DNA of 64,000 bases from a virus: positions 94,463 through 158,462 of the IMG/VR virus record IMGVR_UViG_3300043395_003072; one strand, given 5' to 3'. Below the pieces are notes generated by a model. That model was not told where the DNA came from, did no database searches, and saw only the letters and a program-made list of their open reading frames with translations. Both the position numbers and the translations under genes were made by a program. Numbering within the stretch: the stretch's first letter is position 1; every line of letters begins with the position of its first letter. Of this stretch, positions 4,901 to 64,000 are shown piece after piece.

Positions 4901-7900
4901 GTTACTATTCCTGCTTCTCTTTTTTCAATGATAGCTTTTGTTTTAGCAATAAACTCTTTTTCTTTTTTTGTATAAGGAATAACTCTATCGTCGCGAGTTC
5001 TACTTAAAATATCATTTACTTCTCGAACAATGTTTTGATTTACTCTACCTTCTGTAAAAAAAGAAGATGCCAGTCTATATGCTTTGGCTATTTCATCTGA
5101 TAGTTGATATCTTGTTTTTCCTGAAGTGCCTTGTCCAAGTAAATTTAATCTTAACTCTGAGAAAGTTTTACTTAAAGTATCGATTGTTTCGCCTGCTTGC
5201 GTTTGTGTAGTTTCGGCCACTAACTGTCTGCTTGTTTCTATTACATTCTGAAATAAAGCCCCGGAGATAATAGCATTAGTAATCCCAATCCCCTTATACT
5301 CAATGTGTCCGTAACCTTCTATTTCTTGAAAAAAACGCCTACTTGAATCTTCTGGAGATATTTTCATTTCAAGACCAAGAATGCTTCTTAATGTACTTTC
5401 TACTTGTTCAAGATGCTCTCGATTAGTGTCGTATTCTTTTAATTTATTTTGAGCTTTTCTGACAGTTTTCAAAACATCTAAATCTTGAGAATCTGGACCT
5501 CCAGATAAAGTATATCTATCATTCTCTGGTCCATATCCAAAAATGTACTCACCATCACCATGCCTGACTATTGACTTAGTAAAAAGATCAAATACATCTT
5601 CTCCTCCTTTAAAAGTACCTGGAGATTCAGGGTTGAAAATAGGTTCTCTGGCTAAGCCCCTATGTTCCAAATACGATACTTTACCCTCTCCTTTTCCTAC
5701 ATAATAACCTGTAGGCTTTAAATACCCCTTATCTATTAAAAATTCTTCAAACGTATTTCTATATTTTGAATCCCCACTCAAATCTATATAATCAGTTATT
5801 GCTTGCTTGAATAAGGTTTCATTTCCCTTAAATACATCTTCAAAAACATTAAGTTTATTTTTTGTTTTTCGTAGTATAGGATCACCTTGTTGGATCTCGA
5901 ACTTCTTTAAAGTTAATCTTTGTTTAGCTGATTCAAAAGCTTGATTAACTTGATCAACATAACTGCTTCTAGTACTTTCTCCAATTAGTGGTTCAGAACC
6001 TATAATTCTATTTTCACCTAATAAAATATCAGTATCAGTTTTAACAACTTTTCCTTCTGAAGTTAAAAGCTTAGCATTTGAATCTCCATCACTATCAACT
6101 CCCAAGTGCCTTGCATAAGGTTGATTACTAACGCGTTCTAGCCTTAGGTTAGGGACTTGCTTCATTAACCTCGCTAATCTTTCGCGTTGCCTTGTGATAT
6201 AATCTGTTTGGGAATATTGAAGCTCAAGGATTCCACCCCTAATAAAATCTGGGATGTTTTCTCCAAAGCCACTTGAAAAAGGCATTCTAAAACGAATCGA
6301 ATCTAAAATATCTAGACCTTTATTATACCCCAGAGTAGAATCAGTTGGATTTACTCTATATTTTACAGCTGCTTGTTTAACTAAATTATTCACAATATTT
6401 CTTGCATTAATGCGCTTTTCATAAGCTTCTCTTTGTACCCTTTTAAGGTTATCTTTTGCTTGGTCTATTCTTTGTGATGCGCTAGCAAAACGACCCTGAA
6501 CACTTTCTACGACAGCTTTAGCGGCTTTTAGCTCTGTTTCAAATCGCTTAGCGTAACTACCTGTAGCGATATTCCTCTCTGCTCTAGTTCTTGTAGCTAC
6601 AAAGATACTTTCTCCAGCTTTAGTTTTTAAATCTGATTCTTGAATAGAATCCAAAAGTTTACTTTTCTTTTCTATTTGAAAATCTAAGTTCTTTTTTTGA
6701 GGATCTGTATCTTCTAATGCTTTAGCTTCAGTTCGCAAAGCTGCAATTTCTTCAGTCAGCTTAGTTCTTAAAGCTTCTGCATCGCTAGCAAGTCCAACTC
6801 TATAAGTCTCAGTTACAAGTTTAACCCCACCACTTCCATCATCTACATAACCTCCCATAATATCTGCTCTTCTTGCATGAAGAGTTTCTCTTGCTAATCT
6901 TAGTTCCCCATATATTCTTGCTTTTTCTTGATACACTGCAGTTACGTCTCTTATATAACTGTTTGTACCGTCCGTTCTCGACTCTATTTTGTATTCGAAG
7001 CTATTTTCAATTAGCTCACTCCCAACTACCTCATATCTTCCTGTTATTTTATTAAACTTTCTTTTTTCTCTAGTCCTCTGTCTATCTACAATTCTATTTC
7101 CTTCACTATCAGTTTCAAAAATAGTTTTTCCAAGGATTCCATGTAGCTCTGCTTTTCTCTCTTTTAGAGCTACAATTTGTTCGAAGCGACTAAGTTTTGC
7201 TGCTTCATATTCTTCAAAAGAATTAAATTTAAACTTATCTCCATATAAGGTTTTTAATTTTTCATACTTAAGTTGATTCTTTCTTCTCTTTATTTCTGCT
7301 TTTCCTTCATCTGTAAATTTAGTCTCATCATATTCGGGACCGCCTGAAATTAGCTTAATGAACGGATCGTCCTCTCCTTCTAAGAAATCATAGCGCATGA
7401 TCTCCATGCCAGGCATAAAGTGAGCAAAATAAATATTTGGGTTACGCTGTACTGTTGCAAAGATACCTTTCTTTTCTTTATCGTACATTCCAAAATAAAA
7501 GTTGCGCATAGCTTCTGTAGTTCTGCGTTCAATTTCTGCAGCTATTTCAACTTCGTTACCATTAGCAAACTTATCAAATCTTAGTTGACGAGCTGTAGCT
7601 TCTTTGAAAGTAGTCATACTATCTAAAAAGCCTTGGCTATCTTGAAACAGTACATAGCCTCTTTTCTGGTTGAATGCATCAAGCAAACCCTGTCTTATAG
7701 CTGATTGCTCCCCTCCACCTAGCGTTGGAAGTAAAGAAGAACTAGCTGCATCTTTTCCAAAAACAATTCCTTGCCCCATATAAGTCCCTGATCCACTAAT
7801 CCTCCCAGTCAATGCATCTCTAAGAGCATATCCAGAAACCTTTGCAATCGAACCTCTAGCTGCTTTGAATCCGCTTAAAGCGTATCCAAATTTCACATCG

Positions 7901-10900
7901 TTTCCACTACTATCAAACATTCCTGAAATAGATGCATTTAAGTCTGTAATGTATCGTGTGAATTCATTTTCTATATTTATATTGTCTCCGCTTTTTCCTA
8001 CTACGAATCCTTCCAGATTTTCTAAAGTTGAAGCTCCTGGAAGATATATTTTACTTTTTCCACCTGTAATATCTAATATTCTTTTTAGATCCGTTTGATT
8101 AGTAAAAAGCTCTTCCAAATTTAAAATAGATCCAGATGCTCCACCCCTATTTATCAGGAAGTTTTTAACACCTGCTTCATCAGCTCCAAGCCTTATTAAC
8201 TCTTGAGCTTCAGCTCTACTTAGGGATTTTAAGCTTGAGATACCTTTTATTTGATTTTCAAAATCAACATTTCCCATTTGACTTAAACTAAAACTAGTTA
8301 ATTTCATTCCAAGTAAAGCTTCGGGTCTTCCACCAATATTATCTTGGCGAGCCAAAAATGATCCAAGGAACCTAGTAGCACTAGACTCATCTAGCCCAAA
8401 ATTCATTCTCAATGATGAATACAAGTAATTCATAAAGCGCGGTTCTATCTTTGCAAGATTTCTTGCGTAGTCTGTATGTACGCCACCGCTAGAAACATAA
8501 TGCGCAGTAAAAGTAATACCTCTTTTAATCTCTTGCATAGTTTTATTTGAGTTAAGCCTTGCTCCGCTAGCAAGTCTTTGCTGCACGATAGTTTCAAACT
8601 CGCTAGTAGTTAAAAACTTACCAGACCTATCATAAGCCCCTCCGAGTATTCTCCCCACATCAGCCTCAGTTAAACCGTGAGTTTCTGCAAGATTTAAAAC
8701 AGCTTGTACTGAAGCACCCATATATGCTTTCTTACGACCTAAAGCTCCTGCAGAATCAAGACTGGTGTACGCTTCTCCAGTCATTGAATTGATTGCTTTT
8801 AAATAAGCATCGTCGCTTCCGATTAATTTCTTCATCTCAGCTTCATAAAGATTTCTACCGACTCCAAACAACTCAAGAGACCCAGCTATTTGCGAGCTGA
8901 TAAATTGAGGTCCTTTCTTAAGTTGTTCAGTTGTAGTTAACAATGTTTGATTATGTTTCACATTCAAGTCTGTAAAGAAGCTAGATATTTCACTATCACT
9001 CAAACCAGCCTGCTTTAACTTTTGTTGCATTTGTGCTTCTGTAATACCAAAAGTAGTATCTTTTAAGATTGTAGAGAACATCTTAGTTCTATCTAACCTT
9101 TGGACCATCTCACCGCTTATATGTGATCTGGTTCGACCACTCTCAAAAGAGCTTTCAACAATCCCTAATGTGAAATTCATAATTCCTTTTTTTCTAGAGA
9201 TAGCAGCTACATCTTCATCGCTAAGCCCTAAAATAGCTCGACCTTGCCTATCTCCAAATTCTTTAAAGAATTGGTCAACGCTATAGTCCCCCCCCTCTCC
9301 AATTACCAAGAAGGGGTTCTTGGTGCCAACTCTGCTTTTCAAAGTACTAAATAATTTACTTTCAGTTAATCCATCATCATATACAGTCTGATTAATTGAA
9401 GATTTTACTTCTAGTGTCCCTCCAAAGTAAGACATACCTTCACCAAGACCTAAGCCTTGACTTACATTACTACTTAACATTATTGCTCCAAGATTTACTC
9501 CATGAACTCTCGAGGCTGTCTTATTTATACCAATCAAATCTCCACCACTACCTACGCTTGCTATTGTTCTATTCTTACCAAACCTATAACTTTTATCTAC
9601 TCCCACTACTCCTGCACCTAATTCATAACGTCCAACCATCTGAAAGTCACGTGCAGTTTGCTCGTTGATAACTTCATCTATTCTCCCATAAGGAGCCATT
9701 ACATTAAATGCAGATTCATTTGCTCTTGCCATTGTTACATCAGTAAAAGAAAGCGTTTTATTTCTATTAAATGGATCTTCAACTCTTGTTATTATTGGAT
9801 ACCCTGTTCCTCTCACATCTTCTGGGTACATTTGCATTAAGCGCTTAACTAGGTTTTGTTGCATTTCTCCAGGAAAATCTTCTAACCCTGCTATGAGAAA
9901 TCTAGCACTTTGAACGCTTCTTGCAAACTGCATATTTTCTTGAAATTGCTTACTTATTAAAGATACTCCTCTTTCATTTTGTATCTCACTAAAATTTGTG
10001 AACATTCCTCTTGGAGCATCAAGTCCAGGCATTCTTAAGAATTCGTAAAAGTTTTTAATGTCTCGCCTAGACATATTATTTAAACTACCAAAATCACCAA
10101 ACCCCTTAGATACTCTTTGAAAAATATACTCTTCATAAGAGTAAGAACCCTTCCCTGAGTAAAGATTCCCCCCTCTTGCGGAGGTTAAATCTATATTATT
10201 AAATATTTCAGGAGCATTTAATACTCTTTGTGGAGCAATATATCTTGTGCTTAAATTCTCTGTAGCTCTAACAACTACCATTCCATTTCTATCTCTAGAT
10301 AAATAAAGTGGAACTTTTACTGAAGAAGCTTCGTTACCTACTCTTAAATATAAATTTTTAATTCCTGTCTTGTCAGCATTATCTTCGAATCCAAGCAAAC
10401 TTACATTATCTGCTCCACCTGCCATTTTTACATAATTGGCATATCTTGTACGAACTTCATTAACGTCAGCCCCCATATCCTTCAACGTTGCAGCCAACCT
10501 TGAGTCTCCTAACCCTGAAAACTCTTCCATCTTAACTTGTCTCTCTAAGTTAAGAATCGTAGAGCTATCTCTTCCAGATAGAGTGCTTTTTATTTTATCT
10601 AATTGCGCAAACTTTCTTCTAAATTTAGAAAGAAACTTATCGTTGCTAGCAATGTAAGAATTATAAGAGCTTTCAAGTCTATCAATTTGTTCGCTTGTTA
10701 GATTTCCAGTATTATATCCTGATTTTATGATTTCTTTTAAATCACTTGATCCTAATTCTTTTAAAGAATCATAAAGGCTGCCTAGTAGCGCTCTTTTATC
10801 TTCTATTGAAGCATCTGAACTTTCCAATACAGTTCTTATTTGAAGATCGTTTTTAAAATCAGCTAGAGCTTGTGTTTTTGCTGCGTTTTGCAATTCTTGC

Positions 10901-55008: not shown

Positions 55009-58000
55009 ATGTCTGCTGAGAACAACAGCAACATCACCGCCACCCCCGCCAACGAGCAGGAGAGCACGATGACCACCACCACCACCACCACTACCGCCGC
55101 CCCGGCCACTCCCGCCACCGAGCAGGAGCAGGTTGTGCACACGGACAACGTCACCCTCCCCAAGGCCACCCCGTGGGATGCTTCCTTCCTTGAGGCTATC
55201 AAGGACCGGGACTTCCCTGAGGCGTTTAAGACCTTGGTGCTGGCGCACTTCAAGGAGCGCCAGCTGCACCCCATGTTGTGCTGGGGCCACCATTCCACCA
55301 AGCAGCTTGAGGAGTTCATCTCCAACCAGTTGCCCTTGGACAGCGCCTTGCGCGCGTTCCAGCTGGACACCTGGGGCAGCCGCAGCTTCATTGGGCGGCA
55401 CTTTTCGCCGCTCTTCAAGGCTCGCTGGGAGTCCCTCAAGAAGAGCCAGGAGGAGGAGGAGATGGCTGAGATCGAGCGCCTCAACAAGCTGGAGGAGGTT
55501 AAGCAGGCCGAGCGTGACGCCGATAAGGCCCAGCGCAAGGCTGAGCGTGAGGCTCAGCGTGAGGCCGAGAAGGCTCAGCGCAAGGCTCAGCGTGAGGCTC
55601 AGCGTGAGGCCGAGAAGGCTCCCAAGAAGCCTTGGAGGAATGTGCCAAACCTCCACCTCGACCGCACCGAGCTGTCCACCTACACGGTGGAGCAGCTCAA
55701 GGCTCTGGCGGTCATCAACGCGACCGCCCTCCTTGTGCAGATCGACAGCACCCTCAGCCTCAAGCTTGTGCAGACTGAGGATGGCTTGGTCATGCCCGAG
55801 AGTCCTGCGAAGCCCACGCAGATCATGAAGGGCTTCGGGACCGCCAAGAAGGCGGACCTCATCAAGCTCCTCAACTGGATGGGCTCAGGCGACATGAGCA
55901 TGCGCCCGGCAGGAGCCACCAGTGACCTCGTCAAGGCGGTTGCCCAAAACTACCGCCCTGAGGAGGAGAAGCCGGAGGAGTCCCTCGCTGAGGTGATGGT
56001 GATCGGGAAGGCCGAGAGGCAGGAGAGCGCGAAGGCCAAGAGGCGTCGCCGCGAAAGCATTGTGCAGCTTGAGGAGGCCATCAAGGCTTTCCCCGCGCAG
56101 GCTGACGCCATCAAGCCCATCAAGGAGATGGTCTCGGCGGGCGGGGATACCCCGACCCACATTGACCTCGAGCAGGTTGACCGCGCCAGCAAGGCGTTGG
56201 AGGGTAACACCCTGGAGCAGGTCAGCTCTCAGGTGGGAGCCACCTACTGCCTGACGCTCCAGGTCTACCCGACCAACGAGCGCACCGCTCATGGCGATGG
56301 CAACCATGCCCAGGTCATGAAGGTGGCCTTGGTGCCCAGTGTCGCCTGGCGCCAAGGTGCCAGCTTCTTGGTCAACCAGTTTAACAACTGGATTGGCCTT
56401 GAGCAGAACCAGGACTTGGCGAAGAAGCTCAATGCCAAGCCGTTTAAGGTCGAGGTGGACGATTTCATTTTCGTCCAAAACAAGACCGACGAGAACGGCA
56501 ACGAGTCCGCCATCCCTGAGCTCAACAGGGTATTGACGAAGCTCGGGTATTTGGCGGTCACGCCGGGCTTCTGGCTCAAGAAGAACCACCCCTACTGCGC
56601 GTGGATCAAGAGCGTTTTCAAGACGAACTTGGTTGTGCGTGGGCGTGCCCGCAGCATCGCTACCACCCCGTATCAGGCTCAGCTGTCTTTCCAGCTTGAG
56701 CGTGATGCCGAGGGCAATGTCATTGGTGTGAGCAACACCCCGGTGTTCGTCGCCGACCTCACGAAGTACGGCCATGTGGGTCTTGATGGTAGCAATATCA
56801 TCAGCAAGAACCTCATGGGTACGGGGTGGACGCCGGGGGTTGTCGCGCAGATTCGCCTGCACACCAACCCCTACATCGCCCAGTCGTACGGCGTGCAGGG
56901 CAAGGGGCTGGCTCGCGCCCACAATGCCTGGGCGGTGCACACCCAGAGCGGGTGGGTCATTAAGACCGACTTCTATGCGAAGAAGTCGATCATTGACCAG
57001 GACGACAACCTCTCCCCCGCCGAGAAGGAGAGCGCCATCAAGGCGTTGAAGGCAGAGTACCTGCCCGCAATCATCCTTCACTATGACAACGTGAAGGGCG
57101 CGGGCTCGAAGGAGCTCGAGAAGGCGGTCAAGGGCAAGACCACCCTCTTGAACCTCAACCAGTGGGGCATGGAGGATGGTTATGAGTCTGCCCTCTTCGG
57201 TGGGGTGATCGCCGAGGATTACCGCGGTCAGAGCACCACGAGCTGGCAGAACGGCCAGCTCTACAGCCCCGAGGTGCTCGACGCCAACAAGGCCTACATC
57301 CACAAGCTCCTCGACACTGCCTTCAAGAAGCTGGCGGTTTCGGGAGAGAGTGCACTCTCCGATGTTGAGGGGTTTGATGTTGGCCTGCGGCAGCTTATCG
57401 CTGCCCAGCAGGCTAGCAACCACAAGTGGGTGACGTCGGTTGCTTTTGGTGCAAACCAGAAGTGGCCCACGTTCTACTGCGAGCAGATGGATATGCCCGC
57501 AGGCTTTGTGGTCGCAGGCTCCAAGATCGGTGGGAAGGCTGACAAGCTGGCAATCACTGGCCAGCCTCAGCTCTACCACCAGTGCTTGGTGGTCGCCAAC
57601 CGTCTCAGCTGGGACGATGTCAACGCCGTCATCGAGCACCTTGATGGCGAAAAGGTCACCCTCACTGAGCTCCAGGTTAAGTGGCTGGCAGCTTGGGGTA
57701 AGATGGGGGTGTCCGATGATGATATCCTCCATCGCCTTCGCTGGATGGCTGGTGGCTTCGTGCCCAATGGCACTGAGTCGCTGATCTGGGTCTCTACTGT
57801 AGACCAGAAAACCATGCAGCGAGATTCGGACGGTGACCGCCTCTTGGTGCTTTGGGATAAGGATATGATTAAGCTTGTTGAGGATCACAACAAGTCGATC
57901 GAGGCCCTCCTTAAGCCCCACCTGGAGGTGGACAGGAAGACCGCTCTGGATGGCGACCAGAAGTACAAGGACTTGGCCAATGGCGATTGGGGCAACCCAG

Positions 58001-61000
58001 ATATCGCTGAGGAGGCCAATGAGTACATCTGCGCGCCAAACGCAGGTCAGGGGCCCACGGGCGAGTTGGTTAACGCCAACAGCGCTGTGTTGAACCACTT
58101 TGTGTGGCAGCAGGTCAACGGCACCTGGCAGCCCGAGTCAGACAAGATGCACCACATCTTGAAGCTTTACGGTTTCATGTGCCTCTTGATCCAATGCTCC
58201 ATTGACCGCCAGAAAAAGGTCTGGGCGGTCCCGGCTCTGTGCCAGTGGCTGGCGCTGGACTTATATAGTGGAGAGATCACGTCCTACGAAACCCTTGCTC
58301 CTGGTGTGGAGAAGTACAGCTTCTTCATTCAGACTAAGAGCGGCGACAAGTCCATCCGCGAGATCCCTGTGCGTACCGGCTACGCCGATATGTTCAACAG
58401 GAGCATCATCAAGCCTTGGTTGGCAATGATGATCAACTTGGTGAATGCCAAGAGCACCTGTTTGAACGACACCACTGGGGCTTCTTTCCAGAAGGTGTTT
58501 AAGGATGTCGCTCAGGCGTTCTTGGACTCCTCGAACAACCCTGGCGGGTTTGACTGGGCGGCGATCGCTCAGGCAATCGGTGCGCAGGTCTCGGCCGAGG
58601 AGCTCAAGAGCAAGTGGGTTTTCCCCGACGAGCTCTACAGCTTTAAGGATCAGGCCTCGCTCTACGTGCCTGTTCCCAAGGCTGCCCCGGGGATCAAGTG
58701 GCTCACCACCAAGGCCACCGAGGTCTACTCGGGCTGGCGGAAGGAGAAGGGTATTTCCAACTACCCCTCCAGGCAGCTCTTCTTGAAGTTGAGCGGCCTG
58801 ACTGCCGACTGGATGGCAAAGCCCAATGCCCACTTTGGCGACGATTCCAGCGCGCTGGACTTCGTCAGGGAGTTCTCGAGCATGATGGCCCGTTCTGTCG
58901 CACAGAACCTGGCTAGCGTCGCCAACAGCGAGATCAAGCAGGGGCGCGGCGGCGACACCGCCCGAGAGGCGTTGAAGGAGATCCGTGCCGCGTTGACTGT
59001 CTTTGATGTGTACCACCCCGTCAGCAAGCTTATCAAGTATGCTGTGGGGAGGGACGCCAAGCCGGCCAACGTGAGCATGGCCTGTCTCGGTCTCATCCGT
59101 ATGTGGACCAAGTCTTGGTTGACCTCAGCGGCGACAAACTCCCTGATCGAGTACTTCTCTGTACTTAATCTTTACGGGCAGATCGACGCCAACTTCGACT
59201 GGTCTGTCCAGGAGGAGACTGAAGCGACTCGGTCCGTGAAGGAGGAGGTCACCCCCATTGAGGTCGCGAAGAACGTTCTTCGCAACTTGGAGGTGGTCTG
59301 CAACGAGGAGAATAAAACCCTCCTCATGCAGATGATCGATGACGTCAATAGCGACGTCAGCCTTGCCACCCTTGTGGAGAAGAACCGCCTTGCCGCTCAG
59401 CTTCACGAGTACAGCATCGCGGCTGAGCCCACTGGTGCCGAGCGCATCCTCACCGAGTGGTTGCCTGCGCTGGAGCTGGCCCAGGACAACATCGATATGG
59501 CCACAGAGAGGCGTGAGCTTTTCCTGGATGATAGCATATTCCAGGACTTCTGTGGTCTTGTCGGGGATCCCAGCATCGTCACCGAGAGGGCGTTCCTGGA
59601 TTTTGCCCAGAGGAAGATCCTTCCCGTGTTGAGCAGGAAGCTGCTCAGCCTGACGAAGAGCCAGGCCAACCTGGCGAACCAGGCTGACACCTGCATGCTC
59701 AACTGGTACCGCCTTGTGGCGAACCAGGCGGGGTGGGACGCCACGAAGCTTGTGAATAATCTCGCAGGCTTCACCAAGCTGTACCTGCCGCACATGCTCC
59801 CTCGCACCCGCGAGATTGTGGATCTCATGACCCCCTTTGTGCAGGCCTATCGCACGAAGGTGTGGATCCTTGACATGTACGGCAAGGTCGGGTCTCTTGG
59901 TACGAGCGATCCGCAGGTCCACAATCAGCGGATGGTGACCATGGTCGAGGAGGCGGTCTTCAACATGAAGCACGTCTTCGACCCCACCAGTGGCACTCTC
60001 CGCAAGGAGAAGACGATCAAGAGTCGTCCCGAGGTGGCAGTGAGCCCGGCGCTTCGTGCCAAGTTCACCTGGGAGCTCCTTTCTGAGGGGCTTAGCCATT
60101 ACGGTCTCCACACCACTCGGCGCCCGGCGTTCATCGATACCAAGGATGGTAAGAAGATGATCGTCACTCGCACCGACCGGTGGGTTTACATGGACTCCAA
60201 GATGCCCCGCAACTTGGACATCCTGAATAAGGCCTGCGAGCAGGGTCTGGTCATCGGCCACATCTTCAACCCTGACTGGTTGAAGGTGATGTTGGAGTCG
60301 GTCAAAAACCAGCTCAATGTCCCGGAGCTCTCGGCTGATGAGAAGGTGAACCTCGAGGCGAAGAAAGACGTGCTTGAGTACGCTCTCGCAGACGTGCTTA
60401 GCATGTACGTCATTGAGGACACCTCCCCTCGCACCCACGAGAGGCAGCTACTCGGCTCGCTGGCCTTCCCTGCCTGGTACGGTGGTCGGGATAAGTGCTT
60501 CCAGCACACCCCCTTTGACAGCTACCGCACCAGCGCTCACCGCTCGGTGTGGCGCTTCATCATGAGCGTCATGCCCTTGCAGGCTGAGTTTCAGGACAAG
60601 GCAGAGCTCTACGACCGCCTGACTGGCTGCCAGACGCTTAACGCGTCGAACAGACGTGGGTTTGCGGTCAGTGAGAACACTGACTGGGTGAACGCCCTCA
60701 GCACCAGCTCTTGGGGTACGAGCACGGCCAACTCGGGCTACTCCCGGGCTCCTCGGGACTTCAACACCACCCCCGGCGACATGTTCATCAATGGAACTTG
60801 GTCGAAGCCCAATCGCAGCCCTGCTGCGGAGAACCTCGGGATGCTCGACATCCAGGTCGGGAACATCTCGTTCCAGATGAGGACCGACGCTTACGTCTCT
60901 AATGCGGGCTGCACCTTCCAGGTCAGCTCTCGCTCCAGGGAAGATTCGGAGAACTGGGTCGAGAATGCCCCCTCCGGGTTTGGGGAGTCCAAGGGAATCC

Positions 61001-61368
61001 GCGAGATGACCATCATGGCGATGAGGTCGAATGTGGTGACTGGCCGCATCAACGGCCTTGAGGTGAGCAACATTGTTGCTCAGCGCATCGCGGAGCTCCG
61101 TTACCAGGACATCAAGGGCTGCGTGGTCTCCGAGGTGGACTTCGAGAAGTTCAAGACGGAGGCGATCATCGGCTGCTGGGGTGCCACAAACGCCCTCGAC
61201 AGCATCGTCGTCTCCAAGATGTCTGACGACAGCACCTGGGGTCGCTTCAGCGCTAAGACGAGCACGGCCTGGCGCGACTTTGCCAAGGGCAACAATAGGA
61301 GCTTCAAGATCCTGCCCCCGGTGAGCTCGCGCTTTTACCAGCTCCTCTTCGCCGCGAAGGGTAACTGA
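55009..61368 (+). CDS. Single-subunit two-barrel RNA polymerase (YonO / cellular RdRP-like)
   Basis: Ordered motifs DGSNIIS, QIR...KG, RDSDGDRLLVLWD (57823-57837), GELVN and SIDRQK mirror the cRdRP motifs DG.G.IS, FQIR..G.KG, DLDGD...V.WD, G.I.N and AVD.AK. Start is ATG 55009, or 55069 which has a Shine-Dalgarno. Confidence 0.8.
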   Translation: MSAENNSNITATPANEQESTMTTTTTTTTAAPATPATEQEQVVHTDNVTLPKATPWDASFLEAIKDRDFPEAFKTLVLAHFKERQLHPMLCWGHHSTKQLEEFISNQLPLDSALRAFQLDTWGSRSFIGRHFSPLFKARWESLKKSQEEEEMAEIERLNKLEEVKQAERDADKAQRKAEREAQREAEKAQRKAQREAQREAEKAPKKPWRNVPNLHLDRTELSTYTVEQLKALAVINATALLVQIDSTLSLKLVQTEDGLVMPESPAKPTQIMKGFGTAKKADLIKLLNWMGSGDMSMRPAGATSDLVKAVAQNYRPEEEKPEESLAEVMVIGKAERQESAKAKRRRRESIVQLEEAIKAFPAQADAIKPIKEMVSAGGDTPTHIDLEQVDRASKALEGNTLEQVSSQVGATYCLTLQVYPTNERTAHGDGNHAQVMKVALVPSVAWRQGASFLVNQFNNWIGLEQNQDLAKKLNAKPFKVEVDDFIFVQNKTDENGNESAIPELNRVLTKLGYLAVTPGFWLKKNHPYCAWIKSVFKTNLVVRGRARSIATTPYQAQLSFQLERDAEGNVIGVSNTPVFVADLTKYGHVGLDGSNIISKNLMGTGWTPGVVAQIRLHTNPYIAQSYGVQGKGLARAHNAWAVHTQSGWVIKTDFYAKKSIIDQDDNLSPAEKESAIKALKAEYLPAIILHYDNVKGAGSKELEKAVKGKTTLLNLNQWGMEDGYESALFGGVIAEDYRGQSTTSWQNGQLYSPEVLDANKAYIHKLLDTAFKKLAVSGESALSDVEGFDVGLRQLIAAQQASNHKWVTSVAFGANQKWPTFYCEQMDMPAGFVVAGSKIGGKADKLAITGQPQLYHQCLVVANRLSWDDVNAVIEHLDGEKVTLTELQVKWLAAWGKMGVSDDDILHRLRWMAGGFVPNGTESLIWVSTVDQKTMQRDSDGDRLLVLWDKDMIKLVEDHNKSIEALLKPHLEVDRKTALDGDQKYKDLANGDWGNPDIAEEANEYICAPNAGQGPTGELVNANSAVLNHFVWQQVNGTWQPESDKMHHILKLYGFMCLLIQCSIDRQKKVWAVPALCQWLALDLYSGEITSYETLAPGVEKYSFFIQTKSGDKSIREIPVRTGYADMFNRSIIKPWLAMMINLVNAKSTCLNDTTGASFQKVFKDVAQAFLDSSNNPGGFDWAAIAQAIGAQVSAEELKSKWVFPDELYSFKDQASLYVPVPKAAPGIKWLTTKATEVYSGWRKEKGISNYPSRQLFLKLSGLTADWMAKPNAHFGDDSSALDFVREFSSMMARSVAQNLASVANSEIKQGRGGDTAREALKEIRAALTVFDVYHPVSKLIKYAVGRDAKPANVSMACLGLIRMWTKSWLTSAATNSLIEYFSVLNLYGQIDANFDWSVQEETEATRSVKEEVTPIEVAKNVLRNLEVVCNEENKTLLMQMIDDVNSDVSLATLVEKNRLAAQLHEYSIAAEPTGAERILTEWLPALELAQDNIDMATERRELFLDDSIFQDFCGLVGDPSIVTERAFLDFAQRKILPVLSRKLLSLTKSQANLANQADTCMLNWYRLVANQAGWDATKLVNNLAGFTKLYLPHMLPRTREIVDLMTPFVQAYRTKVWILDMYGKVGSLGTSDPQVHNQRMVTMVEEAVFNMKHVFDPTSGTLRKEKTIKSRPEVAVSPALRAKFTWELLSEGLSHYGLHTTRRPAFIDTKDGKKMIVTRTDRWVYMDSKMPRNLDILNKACEQGLVIGHIFNPDWLKVMLESVKNQLNVPELSADEKVNLEAKKDVLEYALADVLSMYVIEDTSPRTHERQLLGSLAFPAWYGGRDKCFQHTPFDSYRTSAHRSVWRFIMSVMPLQAEFQDKAELYDRLTGCQTLNASNRRGFAVSENTDWVNALSTSSWGTSTANSGYSRAPRDFNTTPGDMFINGTWSKPNRSPAAENLGMLDIQVGNISFQMRTDAYVSNAGCTFQVSSRSREDSENWVENAPSGFGESKGIREMTIMAMRSNVVTGRINGLEVSNIVAQRIAELRYQDIKGCVVSEVDFEKFKTEAIIGCWGATNALDSIVVSKMSDDSTWGRFSAKTSTAWRDFAKGNNRSFKILPPVSSRFYQLLFAAKGN
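55525..55620 (+). repeat. In-frame 45-bp tandem duplication in the polymerase N-terminus
   Basis: Two near-identical units (55525-55569 and 55570-55614) encoding KAQRKA(E/Q)REAQREAE. Confidence 0.85.
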
Positions 61369-62156: not shown

Positions 62157-62268
62157 ACTGAGCTGACTCGGCACTCCTTTCGAGGGGTGCCGAAATGGCC
62201 TCAGCTTCGGCTGAGGCCATCGGGGACTAAGTCCCCCTGACGACCCGCTTGCGGGGAGTCAGCTCAGT
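62157..62268 (+). ncRNA. Hammerhead ribozyme HH6 (five-way junction variant)
   Basis: 13-bp outer stem ACUGAGCUGACUC/GAGUCAGCUCAGU; hairpin GGCACUCCU-UUCG-AGGGGUGCC; GAAA (62192); stem III UGGCCUCAGC-UUCG-GCUGAGGCCA; AUC cut after 62221; stem I GGGGAC-UAA-GUCCCC; CUGACGA; hairpin CCCG-CUUG-CGGG. Confidence 0.8.
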
Positions 62269-62525
62269 CTTCTTTTAACTTATGGCTTTTCTGATTCGAA
62301 GCACAAAATGCAGCATCGACACTCCGCCACCGCTCCGCGGTGAGAGTGTTGCTACGCAACACTCCGCCACAGCCTCCGGCCGTGGCGTGCGTAGCGCCAC
62401 GGGCGCTACGGCAGCTGTGCCACAGGCAACAGACATACATTGTATGTCGATGGCGTCGTTGATGACAGAACGGCGCCACTGCAAGGACTCTCCTTGTAGT
62501 GCCAAGTCTCTTGAAAGGAGCACCT

Positions 62526-62849
62526 ATGTCAAACTCAGCTAACACCCCCGCAACTGCCGAGGACCTCCTGAAGGCCAAGGTGCTCTCCGCCGCGGCGACG
62601 CTCACCCAGATGGGCGCCAAGGTGAACACTAGGATGGACGAGCGTGAGACCGCTAACGGCTTGACTCGGTACTTCCAGTTCGAGACTAGCCTCGCCTCAA
62701 TCGCCACCCTGGATGCGGCCCTCCTTGAGGGTTTGCTGGTCACCGTGACCGTAGCGGCCTACCAAGGCAGCTACACCGGCAAGGAGGCCCTTGAGAAGAC
62801 AGCGGCTACCTCCGCTGCAAACGCGTTTGCCAATTTTGGCAAGCGCTAA
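62526..62849 (+). CDS. Hypothetical protein
   Basis: AAAGGAG Shine-Dalgarno before ATG 62526; 107 aa with GC3-rich codons. Confidence 0.7.
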   Translation: MSNSANTPATAEDLLKAKVLSAAATLTQMGAKVNTRMDERETANGLTRYFQFETSLASIATLDAALLEGLLVTVTVAAYQGSYTGKEALEKTAATSAANAFANFGKR

Positions 62850-62857
62850 GAAGCGGC

Positions 62858-64000
62858 CGTCCCACCACCATGGGGACGTTAATTGTCATGGTTTTCTCGT
62901 TTTGTTTCCTTTTAAGGAGACGAGACGAGACGAGGAAAGCGTGCAATGCACACCTCGTAAAAAAAGTGGAATACCGTCGTGACGGAAGCCGTAAGGCTCG
63001 AGTCGCCTGTCGAGCTGTCTCCTGGGCAGCGAAACGGAAATGCCCACCAGTGGCAGGCCGAAGCGTGCTCCCGCTTCGGTCAATCTGGCCTCCTGCTCGC
63101 CGTGCAGGAGGGTCATCTGGCTAGACTATAGCCAGCATGATTAACCAAGGAGGCCCACCGAGTGGGACTTCGGCGAACCACTTAGTGGGCCTCGAAACCC
63201 TTTACCAGGAGGGGAGACTTCGGTCTGAATCCTGGTCCTCTGTAGCCGTGCAGGGGAGTCACTTCATCAGTGATCGAACGAGGGCCCACTTAAGTGGGAC
63301 TACGGCAACCACCTCGGTGGGCCCTCAGCTGTGCTGTCACACAGGATAAAAAACGGCAGGGTCCCCTCCAGGGGGACTTAAATAAAAACTGGCGGTGGTC
63401 TACCTGTATCGGTAGAGAAGCTGATTGCGCACCTAAGGGAACGAAAGGTGTGCGCCCAACAAGTGGGTACTCTCAACGCAAGTTGAGAGGGAACTGAATC
63501 AACGACTATACTAGTTATGTCGCTGATTGAAAGGATCGAGGGAGCTAAAGCTGTGCACAGCTATGCCCTGATGAACGAGGAGTAATTAACCTCAAGTAGT
63601 CGAAGTTGAGAGCCGCGCTGATGAGCGGCGAGACAACAGTCTGGAAAACTGTTGTCTTATACCCGTGGTTGATGGGCATCAAGTGGGGAGGATTTCTAAG
63701 TGCATGCTACTCCAAAGCATTGCTTAGTGAATATCTCCCTGCTGGAGGTGGGGTGTTTTGACACCTCACCTTTGGGCTCGCCAGTATCTAAACTGGCTGA
63801 GACTTGTGGCAGCGCGAACGCGAGCCCAAGCTAACCAAATCAACCTGGATGGAGACCTAAAAATCTCCTGTCGACGCCCTCATTGAGACGCCTCCACGTG
63901 GCGAGGGTGGAGCCCAGCGAAAGCTGCGGTACTAAGTCTCTGCATCGGGTGATCTTCGCAGAAGGTCATCTAGGTGCAACCGCGCAGGACGGATTTCCTG
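62858..64000 (+). ncRNA. Candidate large structured non-coding RNA (continues past the window end)
   Basis: About 1.15 kb with no ORF showing a Shine-Dalgarno site and the local codon bias. Nearly continuous hairpins, UNCG/GNRA loops and pseudoknots. Strand inferred from G-U pairs, tetraloops and context. Confidence 0.6.

What the first reader, a model, noticed from the sequence alone, without database searches (positions are those of the whole stretch)
62858..64000. More than 1.1 kb of densely structured, apparently non-coding RNA
Seen: back-to-back helices, including GGCCGAAGCG/CGCUUCGGUC, CCUCCUGC/GCAGGAGG, CUGGCUA/UAGCCAG, GCGCACCU/AGGUGUGC, CUCUCAAC-GCAA-GUUGAGAG, AGACAACAGU/ACUGUUGUCU, long-range AUGCCC/GGGCAU and UUGGGCUCG/CGAGCCCAA, and CAGC-GAAA-GCUG, plus pseudoknots. 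I could not match it to RNase P, tmRNA or group I/II introns. Established: some phages carry large ornate ncRNAs (GOLLD, ROOL). Inference: a possibly new large ncRNA class downstream of the last ribozyme.
Basis: partly seen in the sequence, partly recalled or inferred. Interest (0 to 1): 0.75.

Follow-up and report, generated by a model that had tools for sequence, protein, structure and literature searches.

The report
Ribozyme-bracketed large phage non-coding RNA

Summary
In detail: all listed helices are present, the stretch folds far better than shuffles (z -16), strain variants keep the pairing, no reading frame is conserved and Rfam gives no match. It is not one RNA lying downstream of the last ribozyme. 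It holds a variant type III hammerhead (cut after 62978) and a complete HDV-like ribozyme (cut before 63876), which would release an 897-nt RNA. The same hammerhead-HDV bracket sits at the syntenic locus in three related phages (568, 811, 997 nt); three others end the RNA with a hammerhead. The bodies are mostly unalignable apart from a 110-nt core shared by three lineages. In one metatranscriptome its contigs reach depth 275-1093, against 5 for the neighbouring gene and 0 for the polymerase gene. Cleavage and function are inferred, not shown; the 5' hammerhead carries an A6U change and may be slow. Best reading: a new family of GOLLD/ROOL-like abundant phage RNA with ribozyme-cut ends, acting as a scaffold or decoy. 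This scan noted ribozyme-bounded large RNAs in other, sequence-unrelated phages; I found no paper describing this one.

The parts
62979..63875 (+). Predicted excised non-coding RNA, 897 nt, 5'-OH and 2',3'-cyclic phosphate ends; about 24 hairpins, 64% paired
   Evidence: Ends from ribozyme motifs; z -16; hairpin count; metatranscriptome contigs
62974..63037 (+). Type III hammerhead ribozyme, variant core CUGUCGA (A6U); stem III 62974-77/63034-37, GUC cut after C62978, stem I 62979-83/63002-06, stem II 63014-20/63024-30, GAAA 63031-34
   Evidence: Only hit of a strict descriptor in 158 kb, both strands; stems pair with different sequences in L022, L023, L003, L018, L020. Not recognised by Rfam RF00008 at E<=10
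63876..63940 (+). HDV-like ribozyme: G1 63876 (G.U), P1 6 bp, P2 63885-89/63936-40, P3 63890-92/63900-02, L3 UCCACGU, GG, P4 63915-18/63923-26, catalytic C63932
   Evidence: Only strict hit in 158 kb; weak Rfam HDV-F-prausnitzii hit, E 2; same fold with different P1/P2/P4 in L003, L018, L020; 21-base core identical in three unrelated IMG/VR phages with covarying P2
63391..63500 (+). Conserved core of the body: hairpin, GAAGCUGAUUGCG linker, three successive hairpins
   Evidence: Aligns with L003 and L018 with compensated stems; a model of it finds no other lineage
63150..63326 (+). Two imperfect copies of a hairpin module enclosing three hairpins
   Evidence: Self-match; copies look homogenised differently in L022 and run X18
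63329..63392 (+). Two small H-type pseudoknots with A-rich linkers before the core
   Evidence: variant T63337C turns U.G into C-G in the first (my reading of the register); second read from the sequence only
63563..63679 (+). Internal domain with hammerhead-like words (CUGAUGA twice, GAGAC...GUC) but no valid hammerhead geometry; probably structural
   Evidence: not found by hammerhead descriptors
62896..62929 (+). 15-bp leader hairpin carrying the family motif UAAGGAGACGAGAC (starts 62913), a sequestered Shine-Dalgarno-like word that also precedes early genes and a tRNA
   Evidence: Present 60-130 nt after the small gene in all nine lineages
62930..62970 (+). Hairpin with A-rich tail (probable pseudoknot) just 5' of the hammerhead cut; would end the upstream fragment
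   Evidence: 6-bp stem compensated in L022, L023, L003, L020; weak SAM-II-long-loop resemblance only, E 3.2
62858..62892 (+). H-type pseudoknot right after the stop of the 107-aa gene
   Evidence: Sequence; kept in L022, L023, L003
63941..64000 (+). Hairpins after the HDV-like ribozyme: start of the next fragment, which runs beyond the window through a 39-aa ORF and about 400 structured bases to another hammerhead (L002 10019)
62526..62849 (+). Context: 107-aa gene of unknown function, syntenic in all relatives
55012..61368 (+). Context: 2118-aa single-subunit two-barrel RNA polymerase (DSDGD), QDE-1 / crAss virion polymerase-like fold; marker used to find relatives

Best explanation
The stretch is the gene of a stable, abundant non-coding RNA of a 160-kb freshwater phage. 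It is transcribed with the plus-strand (probably early) gene cluster that follows the phage RNA polymerase gene. As elsewhere in this cluster, self-cleaving ribozymes punctuate the transcript: a type III hammerhead cuts after 62978 and an HDV-like ribozyme cuts before 63876, releasing an 897-nt RNA with a 5'-OH end (a poor substrate for 5'-end-dependent decay) and a cyclic-phosphate 3' end. The released RNA is a string of hairpins and pseudoknots around a small conserved core, and it accumulates. It most likely works through its fold and abundance, not by base-pairing to a target or by catalysis: a scaffold or decoy that binds host or phage proteins during take-over, in the manner proposed for GOLLD and ROOL. 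Shown by computation: fold, non-coding status, ribozyme motifs and their covariation, synteny, presence in RNA libraries. Inferred: actual cleavage, timing, stability, and the scaffold/decoy role (about 45% for that last step alone).
For: Each ribozyme motif is the sole strict hit in 158 kb and both face the same strand. The pair brackets the syntenic gap in window, L003, L018, L020, whose polymerases are 63, 30 and 29% identical to the window's; all stems pair with different sequences. L004, L005, L014 end the gap with a type III hammerhead instead, one with the known U3-A8 covariation (PMC3088659). L005/L014 bodies share 152 predicted pairs, 32 changed on both sides. RNA-library contigs cover this region but not the polymerase and 259-aa genes, while the DNA run covers all evenly; run X16 depth 275-1093 in the body against 4.9 on the 107-aa gene. 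No antisense match to the genome above chance. Hammerheads flanking phage genes were shown to cleave polycistronic RNA (PMC3088659). GOLLD, ROOL, ICP1 and phage K RNAs are of similar size, abundant, often near tRNAs (PMC12286853, PMC7567579, PMC9241854); tRNAs follow within about 2 kb here.
Against: No cleavage is shown. The window's hammerhead has A6U; a natural A6C variant cleaves at under 0.1 per minute (PMC3088659), and L022, L003, L018 also have non-canonical cores (only L020 is canonical). An X16 contig runs across the HDV site at depth 275, so uncut RNA exists, and flanking sequence can pair with the ribozyme. In run X6 (same strain) the body is no deeper than the 107-aa gene (52 vs 48). 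Contig depth cannot give level, ends or strand. Bodies of window and L003 align no better than a shuffle outside the core (0.68 vs 0.66), unlike GOLLD/ROOL. L019 shows no ribozyme and L015 only a partial HDV fold. No direct evidence of any partner or of oligomers.
Confidence: 0.6

Rival explanations
1. The ribozyme-cut ends are ligated by a host RtcB-type ligase and the working species is a covalently closed 897-nt circle.
For: 5'-OH plus 2',3'-cyclic phosphate is the RtcB substrate (established knowledge); a circle would explain accumulation. The bracket is kept in four lineages.
Against: No RtcB or T4 Rnl1 in the contig (contig lacks 2.1 kb). No 63875-to-62979 joint among contigs, and an X16 contig passes the 3' site without a break (weak, the 5' side is not covered in that run). 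The two ends do not pair with each other. Perreault et al. looked for circles from clustered phage hammerheads and found none (PMC3088659). Three relatives have no recognisable 5' ribozyme.
Confidence: 0.12
2. The gap is a cluster of independent small elements (decay roadblocks, small RNAs, ribozyme relics) released as one precursor or simply slow to decay; there is no unitary large RNA.
For: Mostly local hairpins, few confident long-range helices; modules are duplicated, shortened or swapped between strains; bodies differ in length from 568 to 997 nt and do not align; uneven contig depth across the body.
Against: The slot and its brackets are kept over large distances; pairing is under selection along the body; an X18 contig spans 572 nt of it; a core is shared by three lineages.
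Confidence: 0.2
3. The RNA is a template or partner of the adjacent QDE-1-like polymerase, a viroid-like or retrozyme-like replicon embedded in the phage.
For: Fixed position two genes after a polymerase whose fold is closest to cellular RNA-dependent RNA polymerases; size and ribozymes resemble viroid-like RNAs.
Against: No ribozyme on the minus strand; branched, not rod-like; phage relatives of this fold (crAss gp66, P23-45-type) are DNA-dependent (titles; established knowledge); the same ribozyme types punctuate protein genes nearby; the body is not conserved with the polymerase.
Confidence: 0.05
4. It is a diverged member of a known family (GOLLD, ROOL, OLE, RNase P, tmRNA, group I or II intron).
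For: Size, phage origin, abundance and nearby tRNAs as for GOLLD and ROOL (PMC12286853).
Against: No match at E<=10 in cmscan or in family searches for GOLLD, ROOL, OLE (the last two had no positive control); ARAGORN finds no tmRNA; not inside a gene; eight relatives also unmatched.
Confidence: 0.03

Closest known systems
GOLLD (RF02032) and ROOL (RF03087) large ornate phage RNAs
   Same: 0.6-1 kb, highly structured, non-coding, phage-encoded, abundant, tRNA genes nearby, function unknown (PMC12286853).
   Different: No covariance-model match; sequence and most of the fold turn over between related phages; ends apparently made by self-cleaving ribozymes; oligomer-forming contacts not shown.
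Clustered hammerheads flanking prophage genes (Perreault et al. 2011, PMC3088659)
   Same: Same-strand ribozymes cut a polycistronic phage transcript into units; the upstream cluster here is punctuated the same way.
   Different: The unit released is a long non-coding RNA, not an mRNA, and two ribozyme classes (hammerhead 5', HDV-like 3') are combined.
HDV-like / theta ribozymes of phages (Kienbeck et al. 2024, PMC10879173)
   Same: Nested double pseudoknot, G1 cut site that defines the 3' end of the upstream RNA, catalytic C in J4/2.
   Different: Has a P4 stem (not minimal) and trims a 0.9-kb RNA, not a tRNA.
Orphan abundant lncRNAs of ICP1 (about 800 nt, PMC7567579) and staphylococcal phage K (PMC9241854)
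   Same: Large lytic phage, ORF-free kilobase, very abundant transcript, unknown role.
   Different: No sequence similarity found in 50,697 phage records; those RNAs were not reported as ribozyme-bounded in the passages read.

Membership tests
GOLLD | Match to RF02032 / conserved 3' domain | tested here: not met
   No match at E<=10 in the genome or in cmscan
ROOL | Match to RF03087 | tested here: not met
   No match; the family search had no positive control
GOLLD/ROOL | Large, structured, non-coding, phage-encoded, near tRNAs | tested here: met
GOLLD/ROOL | Abundant transcript | tested here: inconclusive
   High contig depth in X16, parity with the flanking gene in X6; contigs only
GOLLD/ROOL | Homo-oligomeric cage through conserved kissing loops and A-minor contacts | not testable with these tools
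   Palindromic CUAG loops occur in several lineages but are not enriched (29 observed, 27 expected)
OLE | Match to RF01071 | tested here: not met
Group I/II intron, RNase P, tmRNA | Rfam or ARAGORN match; introns lie within a host gene | tested here: not met
   intergenic
Hammerhead type III (5' element) | Three stems in type III order, GAAA, A15.1-U16.1, NUH site | tested here: met
   covariation in five relatives
Hammerhead type III (5' element) | Canonical CUGANGA core | tested here: not met
   CUGUCGA (A6U) in the window; canonical in L020 only; no RF00008 hit here
Hammerhead type III (5' element) | Self-cleavage | not testable with these tools
   Contigs give no ends
HDV-like ribozyme (3' element) | P1-P4 nested pseudoknot, G1, L3 UCC, J1/4 GG, catalytic C in J4/2 | tested here: met
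   L018 counterpart scores 37.4 bits, E 1e-4, on RF02682
Theta ribozyme | Minimal (no P4), cut site at a tRNA 3' end | tested here: not met
   P4 present; no tRNA upstream
Viroid-like RNA / retrozyme | Ribozymes of both polarities or tandem identical ribozymes in direct repeats, circular product | tested here: not met
   Plus strand only, two different classes, no junction seen

The most novel reading that the evidence does not exclude
These phages keep a fixed 'RNA slot': a leader motif and self-cleaving brackets are conserved across lineages while the 0.6-1 kb folded payload between them is rebuilt or swapped, as expected for an RNA-only effector (a decoy against host RNA-binding defence or regulatory proteins) in an arms race, possibly stabilised further as a circle.
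Probability: 0.2. Interest if true: 0.85.

Novelty: new variant of a known kind. Interest (0 to 1): 0.62.

Why it matters
Large abundant phage RNAs (GOLLD, ROOL, ICP1, phage K) are a long-standing puzzle. This family adds a natural version of the hammerhead-RNA-HDV construct that laboratories use to make RNAs with exact ends. That gives exact predicted boundaries, so the RNA can be made and tested at once (cleavage, oligomer state, partners, circularity). The contrast between conserved brackets and a fast-changing body lets one ask whether such RNAs work through a shared shape or through lineage-specific targets. It also adds natural hammerhead core variants and branched forms.

Tried and rejected
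Rfam scans of the window and eight relatives: only tRNAs and HDV-like hits. blastn against 50,697 phage records: nothing. IMG/VR and GTDB scans for the polymerase or RNA motifs found no carriers; L024-L032 are chance matches. Joining the contig end to its start looked as if it completed a hairpin, but an identical assembly shows 2148 missing bases there: rejected. SAM-II-long-loop riboswitch at 62926-62981: E 3.2, lacks the SAM-binding tail: rejected. Pistol and twister consensus: not met by crude patterns. Internal 63563-63679 as an active hammerhead: geometry fails. Split or trans-acting hammerheads in L004/L005/L014: no target found; they proved to be ordinary cis type III with branched stem I. 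Kissing-loop palindromes: no enrichment. Antisense regulation of phage genes: no match above chance. CsrB-like GGA repeats: too few loops (by eye). Core covariance model: finds only its three training sequences. Holes in RNA contig cover (62957-63185 in X16; 63844-63956 in X18) were not used as evidence. Runs with small word shares were not used to name a habitat. Four literature searches found no description of this RNA; a 2026 preprint on intergenic clustering did not mention it in the passages read.

Full report
Setting. The window is the last 64 kb of a 158,462-base linear IMG/VR phage record. The finding lies at the end of a GC-rich plus-strand cluster (about 60% GC against 35% elsewhere), after a 2118-aa protein, a 259-aa protein and a 107-aa protein. 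The large protein carries an invariant DxDGD motif; its predicted core (pLDDT 71) matches QDE-1, RDR2 and the crAss and P23-45-type phage polymerases, so it is a single-subunit two-barrel RNA polymerase. An identical assembly (L002) shows that 2148 more bases, with small ORFs, more structured sequence and two tRNAs, follow the window end before the sequence at the start of the record.

Observation. All quoted helices are present. The stretch folds at z -12.6 against about -4.5 for the neighbouring coding DNA, and the central 897 bases at z -16. Short ORFs are not conserved. Rfam has no match, nor do GOLLD, ROOL or OLE searches or annotated phage records. Near strains support the fold: 17 of 23 substitutions in predicted helices keep the pair, 8.9 expected; helices change as often as loops, so pairing, not sequence, is what is kept. 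One hairpin is wholly rewritten in a strain with unchanged stability.

Alignment with relatives showed two ribozyme motifs inside the stretch. At 62974-63037 lies a type III hammerhead with a GUC site (cut after 62978) and a variant core, CUGUCGA. At 63876-63940 lies an HDV-like ribozyme with every element in place: G1.U, P1, P2, P3, L3 UCCACGU, the GG of P1.1, P4 and C63932 in J4/2. With strict descriptors each is the only hit on either strand of the 158-kb record. The 21-base HDV core recurs in three unrelated phage contigs with different, still pairing P2 arms. The two cuts would free 62979-63875, 897 nt.

Relatives. Eighteen homologues of the polymerase were found and the contigs of nine lineages read. 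All keep the order polymerase, about 250 aa, small gene, then an ORF-poor gap of 0.8-1.55 kb that opens with a UAAGGAGACG-type motif and folds better than shuffles (z -5 to -14; where a coding control from the same locus was run it was always weaker, but by only about 1 unit in L018). The hammerhead-HDV bracket recurs in L003 (568 nt), L018 (811 nt) and L020 (997 nt), whose polymerases are 63, 30 and 29% identical to the window's; all stems pair with different letters, and L020 has a canonical core. L022 and L023 show the hammerhead before their contigs end. L004, L005 and L014 have no recognisable 5' ribozyme but end the gap with a branched type III hammerhead 580-620 nt after the motif. L015 has a partial HDV fold and L019 none that I could find. 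The bodies are another matter: window and L003 align no better than a shuffle outside a 110-nt core; the core is shared with L018 only; L005 and L014 share a different body with 32 doubly changed pairs. So the slot and its brackets are old, while the payload changes fast.

Expression. The stretch is held by about 20 freshwater runs, six of them RNA. In three RNA runs contigs cover this region and, in two of them, the small gene, but not the polymerase or 259-aa genes, whereas a DNA run covers everything evenly. Run X16 gives depth 275-1093 in the body, about 160 after the HDV site and 4.9 on the small gene; run X6 gives about 50 for all three. Contigs show presence, not ends, strand or level. 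One X16 contig crosses the HDV site, so cutting is not complete, and no circle junction appears.

How it most likely works. Shown by computation: fold, non-coding status, ribozyme anatomy, synteny, presence in RNA libraries. Inferred: the cluster is transcribed as long RNAs, perhaps with an extra start at the leader motif, and punctuated by ribozymes, as shown for other phage hammerhead clusters (PMC3088659). Here the unit released is a non-coding RNA whose 5'-OH end and dense hairpins slow decay (established knowledge), so it accumulates. With no antisense target, no conserved catalytic core and no minus-strand ribozyme, a role through shape and abundance, as scaffold or decoy during host take-over, is the most economical reading; rapid modular turnover leans to a decoy. 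I give 0.6 to the whole account and about 0.45 to the functional step alone. The main weakness is the 5' hammerhead: a change at position 6 made a natural variant slow (PMC3088659), so the 5' end may be cut slowly or set by another process. Rivals: a cluster of small elements (0.2), a ligated circle (0.12; no ligase in the record), a polymerase template (0.05), a diverged known family (0.03).

Comparison and novelty. It works like GOLLD, ROOL and the orphan RNAs of ICP1 and phage K (PMC12286853, PMC7567579, PMC9241854) but fails membership tests for them. Its brackets belong to known ribozyme classes (PMC3088659, PMC10879173). I found no paper on a large phage RNA cut out by a hammerhead and an HDV-like ribozyme. 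Notes from this scan describe ribozyme-bounded large RNAs in other phages with no sequence likeness to this one; they are unchecked leads, and suggest the design may be recurrent. Verdict: real feature, new family, new variant of a known kind; interest 0.62.

Noticed in passing
window 62321-62510; L003 9968, L004 7993, L005 12624, L006 11902, L010 6190, L014 9514, L015 10196, L018 9781, L019 8864, L020 9066: A tandem ACUCCGC motif followed by 200-250 nt of GC-rich hairpins precedes the small gene in every lineage examined (z about -6). Candidate promoter, origin or second conserved RNA.
   Followed up: partly
G000 260, 571; L002 (gap) before a 113-aa gene and directly before tRNA-Glu 11202; L015 14288; L018 12807: The GGAGAMACGAGAC leader, often on the 3' arm of a hairpin that hides the Shine-Dalgarno word, precedes early genes, a tRNA and an HDV-like ribozyme; it may mark transcription starts of the phage polymerase.
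   Followed up: partly
L002 9243-10019 (window-equivalent 63876-64652): A second ribozyme-bounded fragment of about 780 nt follows: HDV-like head, 39-aa ORF, about 400 structured bases, then a copy of the opened-junction hammerhead seen at window 62158-62267.
   Followed up: partly
L002 9247-9256, 9369-9378, 9403-9412 (window 63880-63889, 64002-64011, 64036-64045): A 10-base segment can pair either with the J1/2-P2 strand of the HDV-like ribozyme or with an identical 10-mer inside the 39-aa ORF; a possible coupling of translation to ribozyme folding.
   Followed up: no
G000 contig end versus L002 9368-11515: The record is rated complete but lacks 2148 bases between its end and start, including tRNA-Glu and tRNA-Lys.
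   Followed up: yes
window 55012-61368 and homologues P0001-P0036: An unannotated family of about 2000-aa QDE-1-like phage polymerases with no Pfam, PHROG or PDB sequence match; most contigs carrying it break at 6-17 kb, and its coding DNA is itself over-folded (z -2 to -8).
   Followed up: partly
L014 10909-11026; L005 14016-14150; L004 9566-9680: Type III hammerheads with several hairpins inside stem I and, in two, an opened stem II; cores UUGAAAA (U3-A8), UUGAAGA and canonical.
   Followed up: partly
L019 10896-10912; L020 10642-10660 and 11024-11050: tRNA T-arm-like hairpins (GGUUCGA) near the ends of the gaps, one followed by ACCA; not called by ARAGORN.
   Followed up: no
G000 6127-8323: Adjacent genes resembling adenylosuccinate synthetase (PurA-type GDEGKG) and lyase, read from the translation only.
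   Followed up: no
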